DNA of 64,000 nt, taken from the NCBI GenBank assembly GCA_000004985.1, contig GG738901.1. The stretch is one strand, 5' to 3'. The position numbers and the translations under genes were made by a program. The notes beneath the pieces were generated by a model. It ran no database searches. It was not told the DNA's origin and worked only from the letters and a program-made list of their open reading frames with translations. The DNA comes from Naegleria gruberi (lineage: Eukaryota). Shown piece after piece: positions 1 through 13,935 of the stretch; within the stretch, counting starts at the first letter, position 1, and the number at the start of each line of letters is the position of its first letter.

Positions 1-1998
1 GGTCTAATATCTCTTACATAATTAGCTTTAAATTTCCAAAAAAGTGCTTCATAATTTCCAATTGTAGTTAATAATGGAATTAAATTAGAATTTGAATCAA
101 TTGCAATTGAACTATATCTTTCTAAAAATTTAACCCATCTTGTATAACATGTTAAAAATCCATTATCAAATACTAAATTACCAGATATGGCAATAAATTT
201 AGGATTATATTTAGTAATTGCTAATTTTAGTAAATTAAATGCATTATCATTATATCCAAATTCAGATGATTGAATAAAATTTAAATTATTATTATTTATA
301 TTATTTGAAAATGTTTTAAATTGTTTTAAATTTGAATAAATTGGTTCACTTCCATTTATAGTAATCATTCCAACTTTAAAATTATAAATAGTATTTTCAT
401 TTAAATTTGTTAAAATACAAGTATGTACATATCTTGATACTAATTCAGTTTCAATTTCATTTAAATCTTGAAAATTACAATTAATTGTTTCATTTACCAT
501 ATTTGTATTATTAATTACTATAAATGATAAAATAGGTCTAGATTGAGTAAAAAATTTAATAATAAATTCATTTTGTGGTTTTTCATTTAATAATAAAGTT
601 AAACTACAAATATTATCAGAATTACAAATATTCTTTCCTTCTTTGGAATTTACATATCTGGTAAATGTTGTTGAAAATTCAAATTCATTTAAACAAATAC
701 AACTTCCATAAAAAAATGATGTTAATACAACTGTTATAATCATACTAATTATTAAATATATTATAAATATTATAAATCTTGTTGTAATTCCATATTGTAA
801 TGATTTTAAATAAATAAATAAAAAATTATATTTTTTTATATTTTTTTTATTTTTTATATTATTATTTAAATTATTTTCATTATTATTAGATAAATTATTA
901 TTTTCATTATTATTTTCATTAGATAAAATAGATAAATCTAATTTAGGAATAGGTGGTCCATCAATAATTGAAAATTCTAATTGTTGATGTAATTCTTCCT
1001 TTTTTAAAATTACTTTTTTAGAACGTTGTTTAGTTAATGGATTTTCACTTTCCATATTAGTATTATTATTATTATTATTATTATTTAAATGTATAGTTTC
1101 ACCTAAAACAGGTGTTGATACAGTAGTAGGTGTCATTGAAATTGCAGAATTTGTTACAATATTATTTAAATTATTATTTTGTAATTCAAATTCCTGATTT
1201 GTATTATTATTTAAATTATTATTATAATTAGGATTATATTCTTCATTGACTTGAATTATTTCTAAATTTGATTGATCAATAATATTTAAATTATTTAAAT
1301 CTTGTTCATTTTGTTGTAATTCTTCTTGATTTGAATTTGACATTTTGTCATTATTAATTGATAATTCTAATTGTTCATTATCTAAATCATCAATTGATTG
1401 TAATTTATCATTAATTAATCTATATCTAACACCATGTATTACTATTATTATTGTTAAAAATAAATTAATTGAAATACCTGCTCCCCAATGTAAATATTGA
1501 ACTATATTTTTTTTTTAACACACATTTTACAATAAATATTAAATATTAAAATAAATATTAAATATTAAATATTAAATATTAAAATAAATATAATAACTTA
1601 CAAGCAACAAGAGATGAAATATAAGTAATTAAAGCATAAACAATAAATAATAAAAATAAATTTTCAATAAAATATAAAATTTCCATTCCTAGCCAACATT
1701 TTACATTTTTAGATAAATTACAAGTAAATTCTTCCTTTTCTTCTTCATAATTAAATGGATCAAATTGTAATATTGTTGAAATTCCTTTTATATCATTTTC
1801 ATTTAATTGTTTATTATTATTATTATTATTACTATTTATAGAAGATAATCTAATTTGTTTTTCTTTTTTTTGTAAACAACATCTAATAATTAATATAATA
1901 AAATATAATATTATAAATATTATTAAAATAGCAGAACTAAATACAATAGATAATAAATAAACTGTAAAATTATTAGATTTAAATAAATCTTCAATCAT
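1..1998 (-). CDS. multi-pass membrane protein with a downstream metallophosphoesterase-like (purple-acid-phosphatase-like) region; partial, 3' end runs off the window edge
   Basis: Exon 1 is track ORF 1579-1998 (hydrophobic TM-like stretches, poly-N). A GTAAGT donor at about 1601 and an ATAG acceptor at about 1502 define a roughly 100-nt intron. Its removal gives ..LVA-F-QYLHWGAG.., and the frame then stays open on the minus strand down to position 1. That part is absent from the track because there is no stop codon inside the window. The downstream part has Y.F.VG and GN(Y)E-like motifs only loosely reminiscent of purple acid phosphatases. Confidence 0.5.
1531..1592. repeat. imperfect (AATATTAAAT)n microsatellite inside the intron of the first gene
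   Basis: Direct reading shows about 6 tandem copies of aatattaaat/aaaataaat. Confidence 0.7.
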
Positions 1999-2447
1999 TT
2001 ATAATTGGAATATATATTGTTAACAATATGATGATTATGATATGATGATATTATTATTAGGAATGATGATGATGAAATAATGATTGTGAAATGATGTGAT
2101 GATATTTTTTTTGTGAATTTTGGATGATTTTTGACATTTGATGATAACAACGACTATTATCTAAATCGTTCACAGTTATGAGCGAACAACTTTGAAGAGA
2201 GAAAGGAAATGAAGGAATTTGTTTCTAATACAAAGTTCTATTATCAAGTTCTTCTTGAACACTAATTTATTACAATGAAATAACATTTACATGCAAATTC
2301 ATCACTCAATACTTTTGTTTAATATCAATAACATTAACATTAACATCATTATCATGTCAATAACAATAATAATAAAAACAACAATCAAAAAATAAATTTT
2401 ATCCATTTCATTTCAAATATATATAAATTTATTTCAAATATTTAAAT

Positions 2448-3482
2448 TTACTTTTTTGTAATTAATAAAGATAAATCATTTTCATCAATAAAATAATTAT
2501 TATTACAATAATCACAAGTAGATTCAAAATGAATTTTTTCACCATTTACAATTTCATTTCTCATTTCAATTAATTCATTTACATTTATAGTATTTAAAGC
2601 ATTTAAAATTAAATCTTTTGAACATCTACAATAAAAATCAATTGGTTTATATCTAACTGTTTCTAAATTTTCATTAATTATAAAATTATAAAATAAATTA
2701 TCATGTACATCTTGTCTATTATTAATTTTTTTAATCATTTCATTTAATTTACTTTTATAGTAATTTAATTCTTCTGATAAATCTTCACTTGATGGTAATT
2801 TTTGTATAATTATTCCAAATGATATTGGATCTAATCCAAATTCTTGTTTACATACTAAACTTGTTACTGTTGGTATTTGTTCAGATTTTTCAAAGAATTC
2901 TTCAAATGTATTATTTAAATTACTAAATTCAGAATTATCTAAAATAAGTGGTAATGATGATGTTACTGGTTTGGAATGATTCATTAAAATTTTAGAAACT
3001 GAAAATATATCATTCTGTTCATCATCACCTTGATCAAATTTAACAAATCCTCTAATTTCACCTACTTGAATACTTTCAACATGTACATAATTAATTAAAT
3101 TATTATTATTATTAATATTATTATTATTATTATTATTATTATTACTACTATAATTGGATGTATTATTGGATAAATTAATTATATTTGAATTTGAAATGAA
3201 TAATTCTAATTTAATTCTTTCTTCACCTTTTAATAAAGAAGATAATAACATTGAAGCACTCATTGATTGTCCCATTAAATTAATTGCTTTAAAATCATGA
3301 GTACTTGAATGAGGATTTAAATTAAATTTGTTAATAAAGGTTTTTAAACAATCACTACTATCTATTAAACTAACTCTAAATTTACCACAATCAGACATGT
3401 AACTTTTTACATAATCTCTCACTCTCTTTCGGAGCATTTTGGTACCACTTGCTGCATTTAATACATAGTGTGAGGTTTTCAT
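2448..3482 (-). CDS. hslO: Hsp33-family redox-regulated chaperone (HslO-like), single exon
   Basis: 344-aa ORF. The C-terminus has the Hsp33 zinc-centre signature CRC..(about 30 aa)..CDYC (CxC-x(27-32)-CxxC). The N-terminal domain resembles the Hsp33 fold. A basic N-terminus may be a targeting peptide. There is an internal poly-N insertion. Confidence 0.7.
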   Translation of the reverse strand: MKTSHYVLNAASGTKMLRKRVRDYVKSYMSDCGKFRVSLIDSSDCLKTFINKFNLNPHSSTHDFKAINLMGQSMSASMLLSSLLKGEERIKLELFISNSNIINLSNNTSNYSSNNNNNNNNNINNNNNLINYVHVESIQVGEIRGFVKFDQGDDEQNDIFSVSKILMNHSKPVTSSLPLILDNSEFSNLNNTFEEFFEKSEQIPTVTSLVCKQEFGLDPISFGIIIQKLPSSEDLSEELNYYKSKLNEMIKKINNRQDVHDNLFYNFIINENLETVRYKPIDFYCRCSKDLILNALNTINVNELIEMRNEIVNGEKIHFESTCDYCNNNYFIDENDLSLLITKK

Positions 3483-4214
3483 TTTTTTCGAATCACCAAG
3501 CCTTTATCCAATTACCTAGGAGACGGTTTTGCCATAATCATTAATTTAATTTTAACATAATTTGCTCATAATCAAACCAGAATACACCATAATTTTGACG
3601 TAATTTTCCCGCAATAAAAACCAAAAAAAATACACAATCACATCATAATCTCTTCGGAATTATCATATAATTATACAGCAATTCACAACCGGATTTGTCA
3701 TTTCCAGGCAAAAATATTGGATTTATTACGGATATTATTACGAGGTAATTATTAATTAAATTACGTAATAATTGTATTAACATTATGAATTTAATATGGA
3801 ATAATTATGTAAATATATTGGAATAATTATTACAGAATTTACGATAGATTTTTGACCTAATTATTTTATAAAATTATGAAATATATTTAATTTTAATTGA
3901 ATTTGATTTATTTGATTATTTACAGTAAAGCAAATTACACAGAAACTAACAAATATTGAAACAATGGGAACTGTACAAAGGGAAATGACTGTAGTTTCTG
4001 TTGTTGCAACAGATGAACATGAAGATGAAAGAGTTATGTGTTGGAATTGAGTGAATTGACTGTGAAGTGACTCCAAAGGCAACAGAATTAGTTGACCAAT
4101 TAACTAAGGAAATTAATATTCAATATTGAATTATTGAATTATTGAAAAATTGAAAACTTCAGTGTAACTTACGTGATTGTGGAATTAAATTTGGAAATTA
4201 ATTAAATTCGGAAA

Positions 4215-4880
4215 TTAGACTGAATAATAATAATAATAATAATAATATTGGAATATTTGAATTAAAAGTTGATAACAAACCATATCTACAGCCATAGAAC
4301 TATCAATTTTAGTTTTTTTGTTTTTAGTTGGTTCGGATAATTTATCTCTATAAGCTTTATATTGATCATCTTGTTCATAAATTATTGCCTCATCTTCTAC
4401 TGCAAATTTCTTACCAGAATCACGTGTTTTTTCTACTTGCTTTCGTTTCAAATTCTTCTTCTTGTTGCTCTTATAAGCTCGGCAACAGTTCAACACTATT
4501 TCATCAATCTGAACAGTAAAATTAAACAAACTATTAGCTATTATAATCTAACTTACGATTAAATTAAATTGTTTTTCATCTTTTTCACAATTATTTTTTA
4601 AACTTTGAATTTGTGCATTGTTAGCAAAAAAATTTGTTACTGCCACCAATGATGTTGCAGCTACTTGTTGTATTTCTATGTCAGAGTCTGCTCTTAGTTT
4701 CTTTGGAAATTGTAACAAAATCAATTAATTACTTACCAAGGAATAATAGCTAACGTTGGTTTCATTAATAATTTCCAAGTATCTATCTTGCAAAGGTTTC
4801 AACAAGGTGACAAAGTTGTCAGGAACAAGACTTGTACAATAAGACAGTTTTTGGTGGTGTGTCTTTGTCGTTTTTCTTTT
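4215..4880 (-). CDS. hypothetical conserved-looking protein, probably 3 exons; start codon not resolved
   Basis: The minus strand reads as three open segments: ..LVPDNFVTLLKPLQDRYLEIINETNVSYYSL, then KLRADSDIEIQQVAATSLVAVTNFFANNAQIQSLKNNCEKDEKQFNLI, then IDEIVLNCCRAYKSNKKKNLKRKQ..poly-Y. They are joined by two GTAAGT..AG introns of about 36 and 48 nt. Track ORF 4215-4529 is the last exon read through the intron. No in-frame ATG was found for the first segment. Confidence 0.3.
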
Positions 4881-4947
4881 CTCCACCTCTTTTTTTCGTT
4901 TTAACGAAATTCCTTGTTACGATACATTACTCGAAAGGAAAAAAGCA

Positions 4948-5910
4948 ATGATCAATTTTGAATACAAACAAGAAGATGGATTTGCAGCAATTTCATTTGA
5001 GAATAATTTGAAATTGTTGTTGAAAGATCAAGCAATCACAAAACACATGTGCTTAACACGAAATGAATATTTTGAAAAAAAGAATATACAAAAGAAAGAA
5101 AATCAACCTTACTTTTCAAAAATATTTGGTGAATACCTTGCTAAATGCCCTGAAGATGCATTTCCATTTCTAGTTTTAGAATATTTTGATGATTTTGCTA
5201 AATTCAGAACAAAAACCAAGTCAACATGCGCCTCCTATTTCACAAGTTACAATTTTGATTCAGATTTCATGTCAAGTTTAAGCGCAATTCGTGTAAACGG
5301 TTTTTCATGGAGTAATGAAGGATTTTGGAAAATGACTGATTCAATTATTCAAGATTTTGAAAATCATGATGGTAAAATCATTACAGTGAAACATCCAACC
5401 ACAGGAGAAGATATTAAGCTATTCATTTGCTGTATGGGATTTTTATTAGATACACCTGAAAGATTGAAATGTTTAGCACTTATGAAAAATGAATGTTCCA
5501 GATGTTTAGATGCGTCAGACAACCTTGACAAAACACCAACAGATTTAATGGGTGCATCCGCGTTTAATCCAACATGTGTACACACATTTAAAAGGAGAGA
5601 ACATTCAGAAATGAAAGATATTGTTGAGAAATTATCAGAATTACCTAAAATTGCGGATTCTAAACAAAATAGAATTGCAAGGAAAGGTGTAAAAGAACAA
5701 ACTTGGGAAGAAGAGAGATTCAAAAGTAAGCAAATGTCAACAAACAAAAGAAAACAATTGATGAATCAATTAATTGTCAAAACATTCATCAAATCAAGAT
5801 TTGTTACTCAAATAATGATAGATCCGTATCGTAGATCTGTAGTTGATTTCTTTCATTTAGAAATTCAAGGATTATTTCGAAAACATCTCAAATTACTTGT
5901 ACAAGCATAG
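4948..5910 (+). CDS. transposase-like protein, N-terminal part (320 aa), truncated by the gap
   Basis: Track ORF. It is Cys-rich (FICCMGFLLDTPERLKCLALMKNECSRCLD) and ends directly at the N-run. Confidence 0.4.
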   Translation: MINFEYKQEDGFAAISFENNLKLLLKDQAITKHMCLTRNEYFEKKNIQKKENQPYFSKIFGEYLAKCPEDAFPFLVLEYFDDFAKFRTKTKSTCASYFTSYNFDSDFMSSLSAIRVNGFSWSNEGFWKMTDSIIQDFENHDGKIITVKHPTTGEDIKLFICCMGFLLDTPERLKCLALMKNECSRCLDASDNLDKTPTDLMGASAFNPTCVHTFKRREHSEMKDIVEKLSELPKIADSKQNRIARKGVKEQTWEEERFKSKQMSTNKRKQLMNQLIVKTFIKSRFVTQIMIDPYRRSVVDFFHLEIQGLFRKHLKLLVQA

Positions 5911-5960
5911 NNNNNNNNNNNNNNNNNNNNNNNNNNNNNNNNNNNNNNNNNNNNNNNNNN
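5911..5960. other. assembly gap (50 N)
   Basis: Run of n characters. Confidence 0.98.
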
Positions 5961-6006
5961 GAGTGCTCCTATTATTTGTGAATTAATTTACAATAATAAT
6001 CAAAAG

Positions 6007-6690
6007 TTGAAAATAGATTCTTCTAAAAAAGGATTACTCTATCAAGGATGGATTCTTCACTTACAATATTTTATAAGGTTATTAAGGGGGAATTATACTC
6101 ATGATGATATTGTGTATTGTGAAAAAGTATTTACAAAATTTCAATCCATTTTTACATATTGTTTTGGCAAAGATAATTGCCAATTTCCGAATTATCATTG
6201 GGCAACGCACATTTTTGAAGATTGTGTACTTTTTGGGGATGTTACATGGTTTTGGGCGTTGATTTTTGAATTGAAACATTCTGAATTCAAACAATTTAAT
6301 GATAGAAGTAATAACAAATTACTTGAAGTTAGAGGGTTGCAACATGAAGTTGGAATGAATACATTATTTGCAGATTATCCATTTACAAGACGATTAGTTG
6401 GTAAAACACTTGATGTTGCTAGAAAATCATCACTTAAGGTTGGAATGTATATTCAATTCGATAGATTTATTGGGAAGATATCTCAATTAGGGGATAATGT
6501 TGTTTGTTGTGATGAAATTTTTACGCTTGGAGAGTTGTGTTATGTATCATTAATGTACAAACTATTCATTCACTCAGTTGCCACTTCAGTAATTCCTCTT
6601 TCAAAGATTAATAGTGTGTGCAGTGTAATCAGATTTCCAGGTCTTATTGCTCTCAATCAATTTTCATTCTGTATGAATTATTACCAATAA
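6007..6690 (+). CDS. transposase-like protein, C-terminal part with DUF4218-like motif (227 aa)
   Basis: Track ORF; see the mobile_element entry. Confidence 0.45.
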   Translation: MKIDSSKKGLLYQGWILHLQYFIRLLRGNYTHDDIVYCEKVFTKFQSIFTYCFGKDNCQFPNYHWATHIFEDCVLFGDVTWFWALIFELKHSEFKQFNDRSNNKLLEVRGLQHEVGMNTLFADYPFTRRLVGKTLDVARKSSLKVGMYIQFDRFIGKISQLGDNVVCCDEIFTLGELCYVSLMYKLFIHSVATSVIPLSKINSVCSVIRFPGLIALNQFSFCMNYYQ

Positions 6691-7109
6691 ATACTGGCAA
6701 TAATTTTCAGTTAATTAATTTCAAAATAAAACAATAATAAATAATCTAATAAAAACTGTAATTTTTATTCGTAATAATTCACATAATTTTATTAAAATTC
6801 TTCACGTCATAATACCTAATGTAATACTTCCATAATTCAAATCCGTAATTAAAAAAAAATATTTTTTGCCAGAATTTTGCGATAATAATCCACAATTAAC
6901 CATAATAGCCGTCTCCAAGGTAATTCATTGGCAAGTCTTTGAGTTGGACTCTAAAGCCTTCATTATCTGTAGTTTTATCTTCAAGAAAAGCCTTCAATTA
7001 TAAGTCAGCACACAAACAATTAATAACAAACACAATAAAAACAAACATTAATAATATATAAAGATGTTTTATTCAAATTCTATAATGTAATACTATTGTG
7101 TGTGTATGT

Positions 7110-8717
7110 TTAATACTTATTCTTCTTAAAAGAGGATCTATCATCTTCATCTCTCTTTCTCTTTACAGTAGAAACGTCAGCACTTTCATCATACTTGTTT
7201 GAAGAATTCTTCACTTTACCACGATTATCCTTTGAACGATGAGTTTGTTCATTTTGCTTTTGACCCTTAGTGAAAGCAGAGGATGAACCAGTTGAATACT
7301 TTTCCAATTCACGTAAACGTTTTTCAACAGCTTCTCTAGAATCCAAACCAATGGTAGCTTGTTCCTTTTCACCCATAGCATCAACACGAGCAGAAATTGC
7401 ACATTTAGCAGCCAAAACTCTAGCAATCTTACCCTTGTATTTTGGTGGAGCTTGACCAATTAAAGAAGCATGATACAACAAACCATATTTTGGAGTATTG
7501 TGTCGTGATTTCAAAGCTCTAAAGAAAGCCTTTTCAGCACCCAAAATTTGAACAGTTGAAGCTGGATGTTTAGCCAAATTCATTAAACTACCAGCACGTG
7601 CCATTAAACGAGCACCAACTAATTCACCAGCCAAATGTGTCAAATTTGGAGCAATAGCTTGCATTCTATTCTTCAAATAATCAAACAATGCACCTCTATA
7701 TGTTGTAATACTTTCAACTTCTTCAGCCAATTTAGAAATATGAAGCATATCATCTTCAGAAATTTCAGTACCCATTGAAACAATAGCAGCTTCTCTAACT
7801 TCCTTAGCCAAATCTTCTGGTAAAACATCAGTTAATGGAGCCTTTTGAGCATTATTTCTATTTTGAAGACATAAAACTGTCTTAATATAAGCAGAATTGT
7901 CACGTAAAACCTTTGACAATTCTGGGAAATGCCAACCATACCATTCCTTAACTCTCATGACATAAATATTCAATTCCTTGTCAATATCATCTAAAAGTGA
8001 AATAGCTTGGACAATCATTGTATCAATCTTATCAGGTGAGAACTTTAATTTATAACGAGAAAGTGAGTGTGAAAGACCCAAAGACATGCTTTGTAAATCC
8101 TTTTCAGTGGTAACATCTCCTAATAATTGTGTCAAATTGTTACGAATACCTCTCATCAATGCAACTACAGAGTCATCACAGACACATTGAATACCAAGTT
8201 TACTCTTAATGGCTGCTCCAAGGTTTTTATCACAAACAGCCAATTTACTTTCCTTATCAGCCAATTGCTTTTTCAAGAACTTTTTCAACTTTTTATCCAA
8301 CTTGGATTCAACAATAGCAGTAGCAGCTACGAGAGCTTCATTGGTATCTTTAAAGTTTTCAAAAGACTTGAGTTTAATACTATTTTAATTCCAACAAGTA
8401 AAGAAATGGTATTTGCGCAAAATGATGAGTATTTTGTTAGGAGAGGAGTATATAATAGTAAAGTAGAGAGGTTGGTGTACAATTGTTATAGTTGTAGTAG
8501 TAATAATATGGAGAGAGTAATATGTATTGTTGTTCATCATCATCATCATGGTCATCATAGAAAATTAGGCTTTGAAAGTTTATAAAGAGACTTACTTCTT
8601 GCTGAGTTTAGAAGAGTTGGCAAACATTTCATCAACAGACTTGACGTCAGTGATTTTACCTTCATCCAAAACATTAAACAAAGCATAACCTGCTGCTGTT
8701 TCAAAGAGAACAAACAT
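7110..8717 (-). CDS. nop58: box C/D snoRNP protein Nop58 (2 exons: about 8596-8717 and 7110-8379)
   Basis: Exon 1 reads MFVLFETAAGYALFNVLDEGKITDVKSVDEMFANSSKLSK(N), followed by a GTAAGT donor. A 216-nt intron precedes the AATAG acceptor. Exon 2 reads IKLKSFENFKDTNEALVAATAIVESKLDKKLKKFLKK... and is collinear with human NOP58 (KYKGKIARVLAAK vs KHKGKISRMLAAK, with a KKD-like basic tail). Confidence 0.9.
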
Positions 8718-9097
8718 TTTTTATAGTGATGATGTGATGATGTTGTTCAATATTTTTTTGCAGACAAATTACAAAAATTTTTTAAACAATTTTTTTTCAA
8801 ATGCACAGAAATTGTGATGCTTTTTCTTCTCTCTTGTTTTTGAAGAGATGTGAAAGATACAGAGTTTATTTGAATATTTGATGTTTCTCTTAACCGCTTC
8901 ATAACAACTCACTCTCTAATTGTTTAGATCAAAACTTCACAAATGTGTTTCAACCATTCTTCACAATAGATGACAATATAGAACTCTATTGCTCCATGGT
9001 GTAAAAGTATGTATGACAAACATTCAACTGATGAAATAAAGATGATGAACCAAACTCAAAGTAGAGGAATAGTTTGAAAAAAAACAATTTATAAAAT

Positions 9098-10201
9098 TTA
9101 AATCTTTTTAACAATCTGTACAATATCTTCGTCGAGTAATTGATGGTCCTTACCAACTTTTTGAGGTTGATGTTTTACGGATTGACCCCATACCCAAGCA
9201 TATTTGAATTGACGTAAAATGTGTTTGTGAATTCTGGTACAAAAATCTTCCATTGAACTCTTGTCTCTTCTAATAATAACTGGAGCACCAAAGTCAGCAA
9301 CTTGACCTTTTGGTTTTGTGTAAACTCTAATCAAATCCAAATATTCCCATACCTTTTCCAAAAGACCATCCATATTCCATTCGTGGTGAGCAGAAATTGG
9401 ACAAGCATTTGGAATTCTATCAATCAAATCTAATTCTTCAATAGTAATTTGATCAATCTTGTTCATGGCATAAATAGCAGGAATATAAGCACGATTTCCT
9501 TCAATAACGTCGATAAGTTCATCTACAGTAGCATCACATCTGAACATGATATCTGCATTTGGACATTTGTATTCTTGTAAAATGGCTTTAACAATTTCAT
9601 TTGTCAAGTGAGTAAGAGGAACAGAAGACATCATATTCAAACCACCCTTTTCCTTCTTTTTAAATGTAATATTAGGTGGTTGCTTATTCAATCGGATACC
9701 AAATCCTTCCAATTCATATTCAATCTTCTTTTTGTGTGTAAGTGGTTTAAGAGCATCCAAAACAATTAAAATCAAATTACAAGTACGAGCAGTAGAAATA
9801 ACTTGTCTACCTCTACCCTTACCATCCTTAGCACCTTCAATGATACCAGGTAAATCCAATAATTGCAATCTTGCTCCCTTGTAGTTAATAACACCAGGAA
9901 TACAAGTCAATGTTGTAAATTCATATGAAGCAACTTCAGAGAAGGTATTTGTCATCTTGTTAAGTAGAGTAGATTTACCCACAGAAGGAAAACCTACAAG
10001 ACCAATACGAGCATCACCGGATTTGTTGACATCGAAACCATCACCACCTGGTCCTTTCTTTTTAGTAGCATCAGTCAAGAGTTCTCTTCTCAACTTGGCT
10101 AATTTAGCTTTCAATGTACCCAAATGGTAAGCGGTGGCTTTGTTCTTTTGGGTTCTATCCATTTCAGCTTCGATATCCTTGATTTGTTGTAAGACTGACA
10201 T
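9098..10201 (-). CDS. drg1: developmentally regulated GTP-binding protein DRG1, single exon, 367 aa
   Basis: [41 protein letters not shown]... It has the G1-G4 motifs (GFPSVGKST) and a TGS domain, and is the same length as human DRG1. Confidence 0.9.
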
Positions 10202-10534
10202 TTTGTTGTTGAAATTTAAATACTAGTTATTGTTGTTCGGTAATTGTTGTTATTGTTGTTGTTATTTGATGATGAAAAAACACAAACAGGGCGCAACAGG
10301 AAGAAGGCTGTATTGTAGTTGTTGAAATATTTTTTCTGGAGGGCATTTTTACAACATTGAAAAGTTAAGTGTTTTTGAGATTGAAGTCACGCTTCGAACA
10401 ATAACAAGGCTTGAAATTCCGAGCTTGCCAACACGATGATGTTTAATAATGATGATAATTGTTTAACCTATCAGCCTGATTCAATGAATAATAGGAATGA
10501 ATCAAAATGTGAGAGGATGGATGGTTAATAATTA

Positions 10535-11233
10535 TTATTTATTTTTCATTTTTCTAACAAATTTAAAAACTTGAGGACTTTGCTTTTCATCATACCTTTC
10601 AATTTCCTTTGCTGAACATTTGTAAAGATATTGTTTTTTCAGTTTTTCCCTCTTTAACTTTTCTAAATGTAATTCAGTTTCAGAATCAGTTTCATCACTT
10701 TCTGAAATAATCTCAGTATTATTATTTGTAGTATTTGAATGAACGATGGAATTAATTTGATTAGTTGATAATTCATTCAATCCACCATTTCTCTCTATTT
10801 TCTTAATAATTTTCTTCTTTTTATGCTCTGATCTTGATTTGCACATTTGAATAAATTTTTCCTCTTTTGATTGTTGCTTAATTTTTTGTTTTTGAACCTT
10901 AATTTCTTCATTTACATGGTCAATTATACCATTTTCATAAGTAAGATCAATTTCTTTATAATGTCTCTCACAAATGGCTTGACACATTGGACACATAACA
11001 TGCCTTTCAGGTTTAGATGGTTTTATTTCATCTAATTTGTTAACTATTGATATGATATCATTCGTGAATACATCTCTACTTGTTTTTCTAAAGGCTTTTC
11101 TATCTGATTTTCTATATTCTTTCCGATAGTGTTCATCAGATGATGTATAGCCATTATGTTTAACGAATTTATTGTGAGATCGTGCCATTTTTTTGATTAA
11201 GATTTGGTTCGTCTCAAGTTTCCCGCTCCACAA
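10535..11233 (-). CDS. lysine-rich hypothetical protein with a CPMCQAICERH Cys cluster; the true start is probably at MARSHNK (about 11188)
   Basis: Track ORF. It is basic and low-complexity with no recognisable domain. Confidence 0.35.
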   Translation of the reverse strand: MWSGKLETNQILIKKMARSHNKFVKHNGYTSSDEHYRKEYRKSDRKAFRKTSRDVFTNDIISIVNKLDEIKPSKPERHVMCPMCQAICERHYKEIDLTYENGIIDHVNEEIKVQKQKIKQQSKEEKFIQMCKSRSEHKKKKIIKKIERNGGLNELSTNQINSIVHSNTTNNNTEIISESDETDSETELHLEKLKREKLKKQYLYKCSAKEIERYDEKQSPQVFKFVRKMKNK

Positions 11234-11394
11234 TTAGTTAGAGCTAAAAATAAATATTGAAACTTGCATGACAACACGGAAACATCAAAATTATTACAAT
11301 TAAGAGAATAAAAAGATCAATACATTAATAACATTTGGAAATTAAGGAAGATAACAACGATACAAGTGACATCTTTCTCGGCACCAATCACTAA

Positions 11395-11421
11395 AAGTAC
11401 AGACAGCAAAAGGAGCAAAAG
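11395..11421 (-). terminator. Pol III oligo-T terminator downstream of tRNA-Ala
   Basis: The minus strand immediately 3' of the tRNA reads CTTTTGCTCCTTTTGCTGTCTGTACTTTT. Confidence 0.6.
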
Positions 11422-11457
11422 TGGAGTCATAGGGAATCGAACCCTAGACCTTCTGCA

Positions 11458-11488
<31 letters not shown>

Positions 11489-11494
11489 AACCCC
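11422..11494 (-). tRNA. tRNA-Ala (anticodon UGC)
   Basis: Reverse complement reads GGGGTTATAGCTCAGTTGGTAGAGCGTCTGCTTTGCATGCAGAAGGTCTAGGGTTCGATTCCCTATGACTCCA. It folds as a cloverleaf with a 7-bp acceptor stem carrying the G3:U70 alanine identity pair. The anticodon loop is CTTTGCAT and the T-loop is GGTTCGATTCC. Confidence 0.9.
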
Positions 11495-11660
11495 TTATAT
11501 TAGATTTTGTAAAAATTATAAATCCAAAATTCTAAAGAAAAAATTAGCTCGGTTAGGAAATGACATTCTTGAATTTTAAAAAGATCGTGCTATTATTGGT
11601 ATTTATTATTTACATTCGAATTTTATAGAGATTGATTTACATAAAAGAAGTCCATTACAG

Positions 11661-12347
11661 TTAATGTTTCTTTGAAAGACTTTCACTTCGCTTTCTTGTT
11701 AATTGACGAACCATTTCTTGACTACGTTCATATTCATCCTTATTTTTCAAATCTTTTCTAGATTGTTGGAAGTGATATAATCTATTTCTATAATAACTTA
11801 ATGCTTTTTCCAACATTTTCATATCACATTGTAAAAATTCAAAATATTGTTCATCATTTCTAAAAATTTCATGAGAGGAAATGAAATCCAATAGATTTGT
11901 TAATTTTTCAGTTCTATCATCAATAACTTCCTTTGCAAATTTGTTAGTCCAGAACCATGGCTGTTTTGGTAGGAAGGAATGTAATTGTTCACAATCAGAG
12001 GCTTTATCAGCATACTTTTCAGCAAGATGATTTACCAATTTAACAAATTCAGAAAATCTTCTAAATACATAATGTGTTTGAGAATCATTTTCATTGGTAG
12101 CCTTAATTTCATAGACGGTAAATCTATTATCATGAATTAGACTTTGATGTTCAGGATCTTCTTGTCTAGTTTCAGTTCCGATGATAGATGTTTTAAATTT
12201 TGGTAAATTAATTGGATTTTCATCAAATGGTTGAACGGAATTATTCATATCATTCAGAGGAACATCAATTGATGTTTCCTCTTGTACAACTCTACCCAAT
12301 TCAAGGTCAAAGTTTTCATTATTACCAGTAGCAACAGAGGAGGACAT
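11661..12347 (-). CDS. PX-domain protein (sorting-nexin-like), 228 aa
   Basis: It has the canonical PX motif ..YVFRRFSEFVKL.. (RR[FY]S[DE]F) followed by a proline stretch LPKQPWF. The C-terminus is helical. Confidence 0.7.
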   Translation of the reverse strand: MSSSVATGNNENFDLELGRVVQEETSIDVPLNDMNNSVQPFDENPINLPKFKTSIIGTETRQEDPEHQSLIHDNRFTVYEIKATNENDSQTHYVFRRFSEFVKLVNHLAEKYADKASDCEQLHSFLPKQPWFWTNKFAKEVIDDRTEKLTNLLDFISSHEIFRNDEQYFEFLQCDMKMLEKALSYYRNRLYHFQQSRKDLKNKDEYERSQEMVRQLTRKRSESLSKKH

Positions 12348-12760
12348 TTTTATGATAATGATGGTGGTGGTTTAATTATTAATTGCTTAGGAGCAGCAAG
12401 TTGTTGGAGAGCAAAGGGCGAGAGTGATGTTGTTGATTTTTTATATGTTGTATTTTTAGGCTTGAATCAAAAAATAGACTATTTGAGGAGGAAACTATAC
12501 AAGTCAACCAATCGCACTCATAAAATATCGTTTTGCTCAGTTGACTGCAATTTTTAAGATCCTTAAATGTCCATCGTTTAAATTAATAGAGAATGGAAAA
12601 TAAACTGATGCTAGTTAAATTTTATAATGAGCGATAGATTCGCTTACAAATGCTCGAGTTCTAATTGTTGTTTCAGATATATTGTTTCTAATTCCTTCTA
12701 TCTCTCCATCTACGGAAATTACATTGACATGGAAATTGATACAAAATCTTAATGATTATT

Positions 12761-13935
12761 TTATTTACTTGAATCTAAAGGACAAACGTATTGAACAATT
12801 GACATGTCATCTGAAACTGAAATTAAGGAATCACCACTAGTGTTAAAACTCAAACCCCAAACTTGATCCTTATGTTCTTCAAAACTATGAATACATTCCA
12901 ATGTACTTGTTTCCCATATTTTAACTTGTCTATCAGCTGATCCAGATGCAAATATTTGACCTGTTGGAGAAGCAGCCAATGTCAAAACAAATGAATGATG
13001 TCCACTAAGTGATTTAACAAGTGATCCTGAATTACTATTATTATTATAAATTATTTGTAAAATTATTATGAATTATTATGAATTATGATTGTTAAATTAT
13101 TTCACTATTAAATACTATTATAATAATAACATACATATCATAAACATTAATATGCTTATCATCAGAGGCAGAAATTAATCTTTGAGAATCATTAGTAAAA
13201 ACAATACTTCTCACACTCATGGAATGTCCTTCCAAGTGATGCATTAATTTAGATGTTGAAATATCAAAAACACAAACACTTCCATCTTGTCCACCACATG
13301 CCAAATATTTACCACAATTACTCTGTCATTTGTCAATTAGAATATTAAACTATTTAAACATACATATGCAACAGACATAATAAAAGTCTTCTTTTGTGTA
13401 TCTAAAGATTGTTCCTTTTCACCTGTTTGTACATTGAAAATATTAACATTTCCTGATCTAGTACCTGTTGCTAAATGTTGAGCATCAGCACTAAATGCCA
13501 AAGTCCATGATTCAACTAAATACTATTAAATATTATAAATATACTATTAATACATACGTGGTGGAGCTTCTATAATAATTGTTGATTTACCCTTTTCAAT
13601 ATCCCACACTCTAATTACAGAGTCCATTGAACTTGTAGCAACATCTATGATGTTATTATTATGTATGATATGATAATAATATTTAATAAATAAATTGATG
13701 ATCATGATGATGATGGTGATGAAAACATACATTTCCCAGTTTGATCACTAACAATAGAAATAATTCCCAATCTATGTCCTTCCAAAGTTAAGGCTAATTC
13801 AAAATTGTCCAATCTCCAAACTTTAATTGATGAATCAACACTTCCAGTGATAATTTTATCTTGAGCACAGGTTACAGCAAAGACGGAATCACTGTGTGCT
13901 TGTTCGACACGTTCATTTCGTACACGATAGGCCAT
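12761..13935 (-). CDS. ski8: WD40 protein WDR61/Ski8 (PAF/SKI complex). Five exons, approximately 13731-13935, 13558-13644, 13364-13515, 13135-13322 and 12761-13034
   Basis: The spliced product is collinear with human WDR61 (..[25 protein letters not shown].., ..[31 protein letters not shown] at the C-terminus). The introns are GTATGT..AG of about 86, 42, 41 and 100 nt. Track ORFs 13702-13935, 13547-13732, 13092-13304 and 12761-12985 are exon fragments. Confidence 0.8.

What the first reader, a model, noticed from the sequence alone, without database searches (positions are those of the whole stretch)
4948..6690. Intronless TNP2/DUF4218-type transposase-like ORF pair split by an assembly gap: candidate DNA transposon
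Two long intronless ORFs sit among intron-rich host genes. The downstream one carries a clear DUF4218-like motif (..PNYHWATHIFEDCVLFGDVTWFWALIFE..) typical of TNP2-like (CACTA/EnSpm or KDZ) transposases. The N-run lies exactly between them, as expected for a collapsed repeat. I could not see terminal inverted repeats, and the spliced minus-strand gene next door (4215-4880) could even be a second element ORF.
Basis: partly seen in the sequence, partly recalled or inferred. Interest (0 to 1): 0.6.

Follow-up and report, generated by a model that had tools for sequence, protein, structure and literature searches.

The report
Deleted RAG1-like DNA transposon copy in Naegleria
The two open reading frames are one transposase gene broken by an assembly gap, and it sits inside a complete but internally deleted cut-and-paste DNA transposon (window 3515-6920) of the amoeba Naegleria gruberi; this is an ordinary mobile element, but from a poorly described branch of the family that gave rise to the immune recombinase RAG1.

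Summary
The window is Naegleria gruberi NEG-M.

- **One gene, not two.** ORF1 (4948-5910) and ORF2 (open from 5962 to 6690) are one intronless gene, interrupted only by the 50-N gap. They match residues 255-590 and 636-877 of a full-length 877-aa paralogue at 577 of 578 positions.
- **Element boundaries.** A sister element in N. lovaniensis has six 99.7-100% identical 4,391-bp copies, CCTAGGAGCAGA inverted ends and 2-bp target duplications. Using it as a guide, I found the window's ends: CCTAGGAGACGG at 3515 and its inverted copy (11/12) at 6909-6920. Both are flanked by TA.
- **Second gene.** The neighbouring spliced minus-strand gene is a conserved second element gene.
- **Status of this copy.** It lacks transposase residues 1-254 (the zinc-finger region) and the second gene's start codon, so it is probably non-autonomous.

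Interest is low to moderate.

The parts
3513..3514 (.). Left target-site duplication, TA
   Evidence: Read directly from the sequence. It matches TA at 6921-6922. Six N. lovaniensis copies all carry matching 2-bp flanks: AT, AA, TT, TT, AA, TT.
3515..3526 (+). 5' terminal inverted repeat, CCTAGGAGACGG
   Evidence: The pattern with up to 2 mismatches has only two matches in 64 kb, this one and the inverted one at 6909-6920. The first 8 nt are identical to the N. lovaniensis TIR CCTAGGAGCAGA, and the first 7 to the L007 TIR CCTAGGAAGG.
3527..4214 (.). 5' subterminal region with short repeated motifs (CGTAAT/ATTACG, CATAAT)
   Evidence: Taking both subterminal regions together (918 bp), 7 of the 11 CGTAAT sites in the window fall there, against 0.16 expected. 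That these are binding sites is inferred.
4215..4899 (-). Second element gene (ORF2). It has three exons (4737-4899, 4557-4700, 4215-4508), is 5'-truncated, and has no in-frame ATG left in exon 1.
   Evidence: Spliced translation. BLASTP against the ORF2 that lies inside the N. lovaniensis element gives E=4e-6. N. lovaniensis ORF2 against the equivalent position and strand of L007 gives E=4e-7. No Pfam hit.
4899..4900 (.). Internal deletion junction. About 0.9 kb is missing: the ORF2 start, the divergent promoter region and transposase codons 1-254.
   Evidence: Identity to full-length P0102 starts exactly at residue 255, which is window 4900. Upstream codons do not match P0102 249-254. The size is estimated from the N. 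lovaniensis layout.
4900..5910 (+). Transposase, part A (P0102 residues 255-590). It holds catalytic D (5188-5190), D (5449-5451) and CxxC (5494-5505), and ends in TAG at 5908-5910 where paralogues have Leu.
   Evidence: Invariant columns are from alignment A3.
5911..5960 (.). Assembly gap (50 N). It hides 131 nt (about 44 codons, EYATAMDD...LDFIIM, residues 592-635) present in the paralogues.
5961..6690 (+). Transposase, part B (P0102 residues 636-877, 100% identical). It holds HxxxH (6196-6210), the probable catalytic E (6268-6270) and a C-terminal beta-barrel domain.
6691..6908 (.). 3' subterminal region with CGTAAT/CATAAT motifs
6909..6920 (-). 3' terminal inverted repeat. It reads CCTTGGAGACGG on the minus strand, 11/12 identical to the 5' TIR.
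6921..6922 (.). Right target-site duplication, TA

Best explanation
Window 3515-6920 is one copy of a cut-and-paste (class II, DDE) DNA transposon of Naegleria gruberi. It belongs to the RAG1/Transib/CACTA-Mirage-Chapaev/Plavaka ('CMCT') clade.

A full-length element is about 4.4 kb and carries:
- 12-bp terminal inverted repeats beginning CCTAGGA;
- subterminal short repeats;
- a small, intron-containing, lysine-rich gene (ORF2);
- divergently from ORF2, an intronless transposase of about 870 aa, built from N-terminal C2H2 zinc finger(s), a RAG1-like RNase-H core with D, D, CxxC, HxxxH, E, and a C-terminal beta-barrel domain.

The transposase would bind the ends, excise the element and reinsert it, duplicating 2 bp (A/T only in the 8 matched cases).

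The window copy inserted at a TA in the 221-bp spacer between a Nop56/58-type gene and an Hsp33 gene. It has since lost, or was copied without, about 0.9 kb covering the ORF2 start, the shared promoter region and transposase codons 1-254. It probably cannot make active transposase, but it keeps both ends and could be moved in trans by the full-length paralogue.

The 'two ORFs' are one gene interrupted by a 50-N assembly gap.

What is shown: gene continuity, family membership by motifs and fold, multicopy status, TIRs and TSD, ORF2 conservation, and the truncation. What is inferred: the catalytic roles of D103/D190/E490, DNA binding by the zinc fingers, the function of ORF2 and the subterminal repeats, and mobilisation in trans.
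For: - **One gene.** The window translation equals P0102 (EFC46618.1, 877 aa) residues 255-590 and 636-877, 577/578 identical. The gap hides 131 nt (about 44 codons), and the base after the gap fits the Met635 codon.
- **Multicopy.** Proteins at least 90% identical are encoded on at least 4 N. gruberi scaffolds, a second subfamily on 4 more, and N. lovaniensis encodes an identical 742-aa protein at 6 loci.
- **Mobile element shown directly in the sister species.** Six loci share a sharply bounded 4,391-bp unit at 99.7-100% identity, with unrelated flanking genes, perfect 12-bp TIRs and matching 2-bp flanks in 6 of 6.
- **Same ends in the window.** CCTAGGAGACGG lies at 3515, and its only other match in 64 kb is inverted at 6909-6920 (0.31 matches expected for the whole window). 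Both are flanked by TA. A third member, L007, has CCTAGGAAGGTCAAAACA ends (17/18), and a distant member, L008, has CTTAGCAGATA ends with TT/TT flanks.
- **Transposase identity.** There are 99 relatives at E<=1e-3. D103, D190, C205, C208, H466, H470 and E490 are invariant in 15 full-length members, which matches the C(2)C/H(3-4)H signature described in PMC12730594. Relatives P0021 and P0107 pass the Pfam Plavaka threshold (40.1 and 38.5 bits against 26.3). DUF4218 weak hits fall on the HxxxH..E stretch.
- **N-terminus.** The family N-terminus matches C2H2 fingers at E=4e-6.
- **ORF2.** It is conserved in three elements, at the same place and on the same strand.
- **Prior annotation.** RepeatModeler had already listed 38 'CMC-EnSpm' pieces in N. 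lovaniensis (PMC6125883).
Against: - Pfam does not reach its own threshold on the window protein (Plavaka 13-16 bits against 26.3; no Transposase_21 or DUF4218 hit).
- The termini are CCTAGG, not the CA..TG/CACTA usual in this clade.
- No DNA of the other N. gruberi copies could be fetched. The deletion end-points and the N. gruberi consensus are therefore inferred from proteins and from N. lovaniensis.
- The 2-bp TA duplication alone has roughly a 1-in-8 chance of arising by coincidence in AT-rich DNA, and L007's flanks (TA/AT) do not match.
- The window's 3' TIR has one mismatch.
- Catalytic residues were assigned from alignment, not from a superposition.
- No evidence of transcription or excision was available.
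Confidence: 0.9

Rival explanations
1. A domesticated (host-co-opted) transposase gene or ordinary host gene. On this view the two ORFs form a single-copy cellular gene that only descends from a transposase.
For: The catalytic residues are intact, and the protein is annotated simply as 'predicted protein'. No transposition has been seen experimentally.
Against: Near-identical copies lie on several scaffolds. The gene is flanked by TIRs and a TSD. It is 5'-truncated by 254 codons and sits in a tiny intergenic spacer. The sister element has six identical copies with different neighbours.
Confidence: 0.03
2. A KDZ (Kyakuja-Dileera-Zisupton) superfamily element rather than a CMC/Plavaka-type one.
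For: KDZ and Plavaka were first described together and share a DxPA/Q-like second-D motif. This rests on my own knowledge and the introduction of PMC12730594.
Against: None of 100 family members hits a KDZ Pfam model at E<=1e-3. The CxxC/HxxxH signature, the 2-bp TSD and the RAG1 fold point to CMCT. Per PMC12730594, Kyakuja makes 7-bp and Zisupton 8-bp TSDs.
Confidence: 0.03
3. The copy is actually full-length and autonomous. On this view the missing N-terminus and the TAG at 5908 are assembly artefacts of a repeat collapsed in a Sanger assembly.
For: The gap lies inside a multicopy repeat that is over 99% identical between copies. The TAG is the last codon before the gap and differs from a Leu codon (TTG) by one base.
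Against: The deletion junction at 4899/4900 lies in continuous sequence about 1 kb from the gap. ORF2 abuts transposase codon 255 directly, and a mis-join would not normally create that.
Confidence: 0.07

Closest known systems
Plavaka DNA transposons of fungi (Pfam PF18759; PlavakaA/B of PMC12730594)
   Same: Plavaka is the nearest Pfam model: 3 family members pass it, and the window protein hits weakly at the second-D/CxxC stretch. [quoted passage not shown] Both make 2-bp TSDs (PlavakaA 2 bp, PlavakaB 2-3 bp).
   Different: Plavaka termini are TGT..ACA or CATCA..TGATG; here they are CCTAGGA..TCCTAGG. The hosts are Heterolobosea and uncultured protists, not Agaricomycetes. The window protein scores 13-16 bits, below the 26.3-bit threshold. 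A conserved divergent ORF2 is present.
CACTA/EnSpm (TNP2-like TnpD transposase plus TnpA; Pfam Transposase_21 and DUF4218)
   Same: Both are two-gene elements with short TIRs and subterminal repeats. The HxxxH..E stretch corresponds to the DUF4218 region. RepeatModeler already labelled Naegleria lovaniensis repeats 'CMC-EnSpm' (PMC6125883).
   Different: There is no Transposase_21 hit in any of 100 members. The termini are not CACTA. The TSD is 2 bp rather than the typical 3 bp. ORF2 has no detectable similarity to any Pfam family, and its gene order is divergent.
RAG1 / RAG1-like (ProtoRAG) / Transib transposases
   Different: Sequence identity is 12-14%, and no sequence-level hit to PDB RAG1 was found. 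The TSD is 2 bp rather than 5 bp. There is no RAG2-like partner. The ends are different (no heptamer CACAGTG).
Mirage (CMC superfamily, 2-bp TSD)
   Same: It has a 2-bp target duplication and belongs to the same clade. The TSD length is from my own knowledge and from the '2 to 5 bp' statement in PMC12730594.
   Different: It was not compared directly, because no reference sequences were available in the tools.

Membership tests
CMC / CMCT clade of DDE transposons (EnSpm-Mirage-Chapaev-Transib-Plavaka) | [quoted passage not shown] | tested here: met
   D103, D190, C205-x2-C208, H466-x3-H470 and E490 are invariant in 15 full-length members. All are present in the window at 5188, 5449, 5494-5505, 6196-6210 and 6268. 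The definition is from PMC12730594.
CMC / CMCT clade of DDE transposons | RAG1/Transib-like catalytic fold | tested here: met
   [not shown]
CMC / CMCT clade of DDE transposons | Terminal inverted repeats and a 2-5 bp target-site duplication | tested here: met
   Window: 12-bp TIR (11/12) with TA/TA flanks. N. lovaniensis: perfect 12-bp TIR with 2-bp TSD in 6 of 6 copies. L008: 11-bp TIR with TT/TT flanks.
CMC / CMCT clade of DDE transposons | 5'-CA..TG-3' (CACTA-like) termini ('in most cases') | tested here: not met
   Termini are CCTAGGA..TCCTAGG in the window, N. lovaniensis and L007, and CTTAG..CTAAG in L008.
Pfam Plavaka (PF18759) | Score at or above the gathering threshold of 26.3 bits | tested here: not met
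   The window ORF1 scores 15.6 bits, P0001 scores 13.2 bits, and P0102 has no hit. Relatives P0021 (40.1 bits) and P0107 (38.5 bits) do pass.
Plavaka transposons (PMC12730594) | Termini TGT..ACA (A) or CATCA..TGATG (B) | tested here: not met
   Termini are CCTAGG.
TNP2-like / CACTA transposase (Pfam Transposase_21 PF02992 plus DUF4218 PF13960) | Significant match to Transposase_21 and DUF4218 | tested here: not met
   No Transposase_21 hit in 100 members. DUF4218 hits appear in only 3 members (best E=1.9e-4), and the two inspected score 15-16 bits, below the 27-bit threshold. None falls on the window protein.
KDZ (Kyakuja-Dileera-Zisupton) | Match to KDZ transposase models; 7-8 bp TSD | tested here: not met
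   No KDZ family appears among the Pfam hits of 100 members. The TSD is 2 bp. KDZ TSD lengths are from PMC12730594.
Autonomous element (functional copy) | Complete transposase ORF including the N-terminal DNA-binding region | tested here: not met
   The window lacks P0102 residues 1-254, which carry the C2H2-type fingers. ORF2 lacks an ATG. A TAG sits at 5908.
Active transposon family | Observed excision or insertion, or polymorphic empty sites | not testable with these tools
   Only indirect evidence is available: near-identical copies at different loci.

The most novel reading that the evidence does not exclude
The Naegleria elements and their roughly 100 mostly metagenomic relatives form a distinct lineage of the RAG1/Transib/CMC clade that has not been described in any paper I could search. 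Its features would be CYTAG termini, a 2-bp A/T target duplication, a conserved divergent intron-containing ORF2, an N-terminal C2H2 finger and a C-terminal Tudor/KOW-like barrel. It would still be active in N. lovaniensis and N. gruberi, and its transposase would be structurally closer to RAG1 than the solved Transib enzyme is.
Probability: 0.5. Interest if true: 0.45.

Novelty: new member of a known kind. Interest (0 to 1): 0.3.

Why it matters
- **Annotation.** Four or more N. gruberi 'predicted protein' models (EFC39175.1, EFC39176.1, EFC36411.1, EFC46618.1) and several N. lovaniensis models are transposon genes or fragments and should be masked or relabelled. The N. lovaniensis transposase model is cut to 742 aa from an ORF of about 870 codons.
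- **Possible tool.** Six identical copies in N. lovaniensis and copies about 99.8% identical at protein level in N. gruberi suggest a currently or very recently active DNA transposon in a genus that includes the pathogen N. fowleri and has few genetic tools. An active cut-and-paste element with defined 12-bp ends is a candidate insertional-mutagenesis or transgenesis vector.
- **Evolution.** It adds a well-folded, deep-branching eukaryotic member to the RAG1/Transib/CMC clade. This is useful for tracing how the RAG1 core evolved, but it does not change the current picture.

Tried and rejected
- A generic repeat scan of 1-12000 found only low-complexity AT repeats and no TIR. The ends were found only after the N. 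lovaniensis copies gave the CCTAGG terminus.
- E327 in 'FHLEIQG' was first considered as the catalytic E. I rejected it because the column is not conserved; E490 is invariant.
- The word-index search with ORF2 found nothing, so ORF2 is unannotated in N. gruberi.
- Encoding contigs for P0001 and P0102 are not on record, and the P0002 contig has no DNA. No other N. gruberi copy could be aligned at DNA level.
- PDB sequence searches with profiles A1 and A3 found no transposase or RAG1, only C2H2 fingers for the N-terminus.
- A literature search for the assembly GCA_041447075 found nothing, so the source organism of P0002 remains unknown.
- The hunt for an upstream 'MVPEST' exon was moot. It is simply the contiguous sequence of the full-length ORF.

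Full report
**What is in the sequence.** The stated ORFs exist. ORF1 runs 4948-5910 (+, 320 aa). The second runs 6007-6690 (+), and its frame is open back to 5962, the first full codon after the gap. The only N-run in the window is 5911-5960, 50 N. The window is AT-rich at 17-36% GC. ORF1 is identical to the deposited Naegleria gruberi NEG-M model EFC39175.1, and the C-terminus of ORF2 to EFC39176.1. The window is therefore a piece of the 309-kb N. gruberi scaffold.

**One gene, not two.** A search of 5.8 billion proteins returned an N. gruberi 'predicted protein' of 629 aa (P0001). It bridges the gap with 45 residues, LEYATAMDD...LDFIIM.
- Its 90% cluster also holds a full-length 877-aa paralogue, P0102 (EFC46618.1), on another scaffold.
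- The window translation equals P0102 residues 255-590 and 636-877. One substitution occurs in 578 residues.
- The single base after the gap completes the Met635 codon. The gap therefore hides 131 nt (about 44 codons), and the two ORFs are one reading frame.
- The TAG that ends ORF1 (5908-5910) sits where the paralogues have Leu591. It is the last codon before the gap, so it is either a TTG-to-TAG mutation or a read-end error.

**What the protein is.** Pfam on the window protein gives only a sub-threshold Plavaka hit (E=0.0097, 15.6 bits against 26.3). It gives no DUF4218 or Transposase_21 hit.
- An exhaustive profile search over 1.84 billion representatives found 99 relatives at E<=1e-3, including full-length proteins of 817-930 aa.
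- Of the 100 sequences, 3 hit Plavaka (best 1.8e-12) and 3 hit DUF4218 (best 1.9e-4).
- P0021 matches our profile at 7.9e-28 and passes the Plavaka threshold at 40.1 bits. P0107 does too.
- In an alignment of 15 full-length members the invariant columns include D103, D190, C205, C208, H466, H470 and E490 in P0001 numbering. [quoted passage not shown]
- The glutamate in 'FHLEIQG' is not conserved, so E490 in the second ORF is the probable catalytic E.
- An AlphaFold2 model of P0001 built on 35 sequences is confident (pLDDT 89.4, pTM 0.89).
- Foldseek gives 22 hits at E<=1e-3, all RAG1, with Transib next.
- The N-terminal region of full-length members matches C2H2 zinc fingers (KCMF1, CTCF; E=4e-6 to 1e-4).

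**It is a mobile element.** N. lovaniensis encodes an identical 742-aa relative at six loci.
- Their DNA (L001-L006) shares a sharply bounded 4,391-bp unit at 99.7-100% identity, with entirely different neighbouring genes.
- That unit ends in perfect 12-bp inverted repeats, CCTAGGAGCAGA...TCTGCTCCTAGG.
- It is flanked in all six cases by matching 2-bp duplications: AT, AA, TT, TT, AA, TT.
- It holds an intronless open frame of 888 codons, with the first Met giving about 869 aa. The annotation truncates this to 742.
- Upstream and divergent lies a small two-intron gene of about 190 aa.

**The window's element boundaries.** Guided by that terminus, I found CCTAGGAGACGG at 3515-3526.
- Allowing two mismatches, its only other occurrence in the 64-kb window is the inverted copy at 6909-6920, CCTTGGAGACGG on the minus strand, 11/12. 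The expected count for the whole window is 0.31.
- Both ends are flanked by TA, at 3513-3514 and 6921-6922.
- A metagenomic relative, L007 (863-aa transposase, 29% identical), has CCTAGGAAGGTCAAAACA ends (17/18). Its flanks (TA/AT) do not match.
- A distant relative, L008, has CTTAGCAGATA ends with TT/TT flanks.
- The element is therefore window 3515-6920. It is inserted in what would otherwise be a 221-bp spacer between a Nop-domain gene (7110-8300, minus) and an Hsp33 gene (2448-3482, minus), 32 bp from the Hsp33 start codon.

**The minus-strand neighbour is an element gene.** The spliced product of 4215-4899 has introns at 4701-4736 and 4509-4556, both GT..AG.
- It matches the N. lovaniensis internal ORF2 at E=4e-6 in a single pairwise comparison.
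- N. lovaniensis ORF2 matches the equivalent upstream, divergent position of L007 at E=4e-7.
- Small minus-strand ORFs upstream of the transposase are also called on the contigs of P0002, L007 and L008.
- ORF2 has no Pfam match and no indexed homologue, so its function is unknown. By analogy with TnpA of En/Spm it may bind the subterminal repeats; this is an inference.
- CGTAAT occurs 11 times in the window, 7 of them in the 918 bp of subterminal sequence, against 0.16 expected. The N. lovaniensis element has its own CGACGGTATTTT-like subterminal repeats.

**This copy is defective.** Identity to the 877-aa protein starts abruptly at residue 255, window 4900. The preceding codons do not match.
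- On the other strand, ORF2 exon 1 runs straight into that junction and has no in-frame ATG. In N. lovaniensis the ORF2 start lies 18 codons before the conserved 'SY', which is just where the window junction falls.
- The copy therefore lacks about 0.9 kb: the ORF2 start, the divergent promoter region and transposase codons 1-254 with the zinc fingers.
- Adding that 0.9 kb and the real gap length brings the copy to about 4.4 kb, the size of the N. lovaniensis element.
- Internal deletion with intact ends is the usual fate of DNA transposons. Such a copy is expected to be non-autonomous but mobilisable in trans; this is an inference.

**Comparison with known families.** The element works like a CMC/CMCT-clade cut-and-paste transposon.
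- It meets the signature, fold, TIR and TSD criteria.
- It fails the CA..TG terminus rule and does not reach Pfam thresholds for Plavaka, Transposase_21 or DUF4218.
- It shows none of the KDZ features: no KDZ model hit, and a 2-bp rather than 7-8-bp TSD.
- Plavaka is the nearest named family. Its TSD is also 2 or 2-3 bp, but its termini are TGT..ACA or CATCA..TGATG.
- The N. lovaniensis genome paper already lists 38 'CMC-EnSpm' RepeatModeler pieces totalling 69.8 kb (PMC6125883). The kind was therefore noticed automatically, though I found no description of its structure.

**Verdict.** The finding is real and correctly interpreted. It is a new, well-delimited member, possibly a distinct lineage, of a known transposon clade. 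Its value is for annotation, and perhaps as a genetic tool in Naegleria. It is not surprising in kind.

Noticed in passing
window 2448-3482 (-) and 7110-8300 (-): The flanking host genes are an Hsp33 chaperone (PF01430, E=3.6e-30) and a Nop56/58-type snoRNP protein (PF01798, E=9.8e-85). The element's 5' end lies only 32 bp upstream of the Hsp33 start codon, so it may have displaced or replaced that gene's promoter.
   Followed up: partly
window 3527-4214 and 6691-6908: The motif CGTAAT/ATTACG is concentrated in the subterminal regions: 7 of the 11 sites in the window, against 0.16 expected. CATAAT is enriched too (12 of 73). The N. lovaniensis element instead has CGACGGTATTTT-like subterminal repeats. 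These are possible binding sites for ORF2 or the transposase.
   Followed up: partly
[not shown]
   Followed up: no
window 5908-5910: The stop codon that ends ORF1 is the last codon before the N-run and aligns to Leu591 of the paralogues. It is one base away from TTG, so it may be a contig-end sequencing error rather than a real nonsense mutation.
   Followed up: partly
L001-L006 4328-8718 (N. lovaniensis PYSW02 contigs): There are six 99.7-100% identical copies of a 4,391-bp element with perfect TIRs and 2-bp TSDs, which suggests very recent activity. The deposited gene model (742 aa) starts inside an ORF that is open for 888 codons. The 187-aa ORF2 model is annotated in only two of the six copies.
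   Followed up: yes
L002 8746-8890 and 12703-12847: A 145-bp 100% identical direct repeat, plus a 64-bp repeat at 12638-12701 and 13305-13368, lies just downstream of the element in one N. lovaniensis locus. It is unrelated to the element, and its nature is unknown.
   Followed up: no
L008 3-13 and 4542-4552 (Logan ERR1598039 contig); L009 (JGI 3300013895): Distant family members come from sequencing runs and metagenomes of unknown organisms (GC 40-46%). L008 has 11-bp CTTAGCAGATA TIRs with TT/TT flanks. L009 is the member that passes the Pfam Plavaka threshold. P0002 (35% identical, intronless) comes from NCBI assembly GCA_041447075.1, whose organism I could not identify.
   Followed up: partly
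window 1-4000: The first 4 kb of the window are markedly more AT-rich (17-22% GC) than the rest (28-36%). They contain many ATT/AAT-type low-complexity tracts, including asparagine runs inside the Hsp33 ORF.
   Followed up: no
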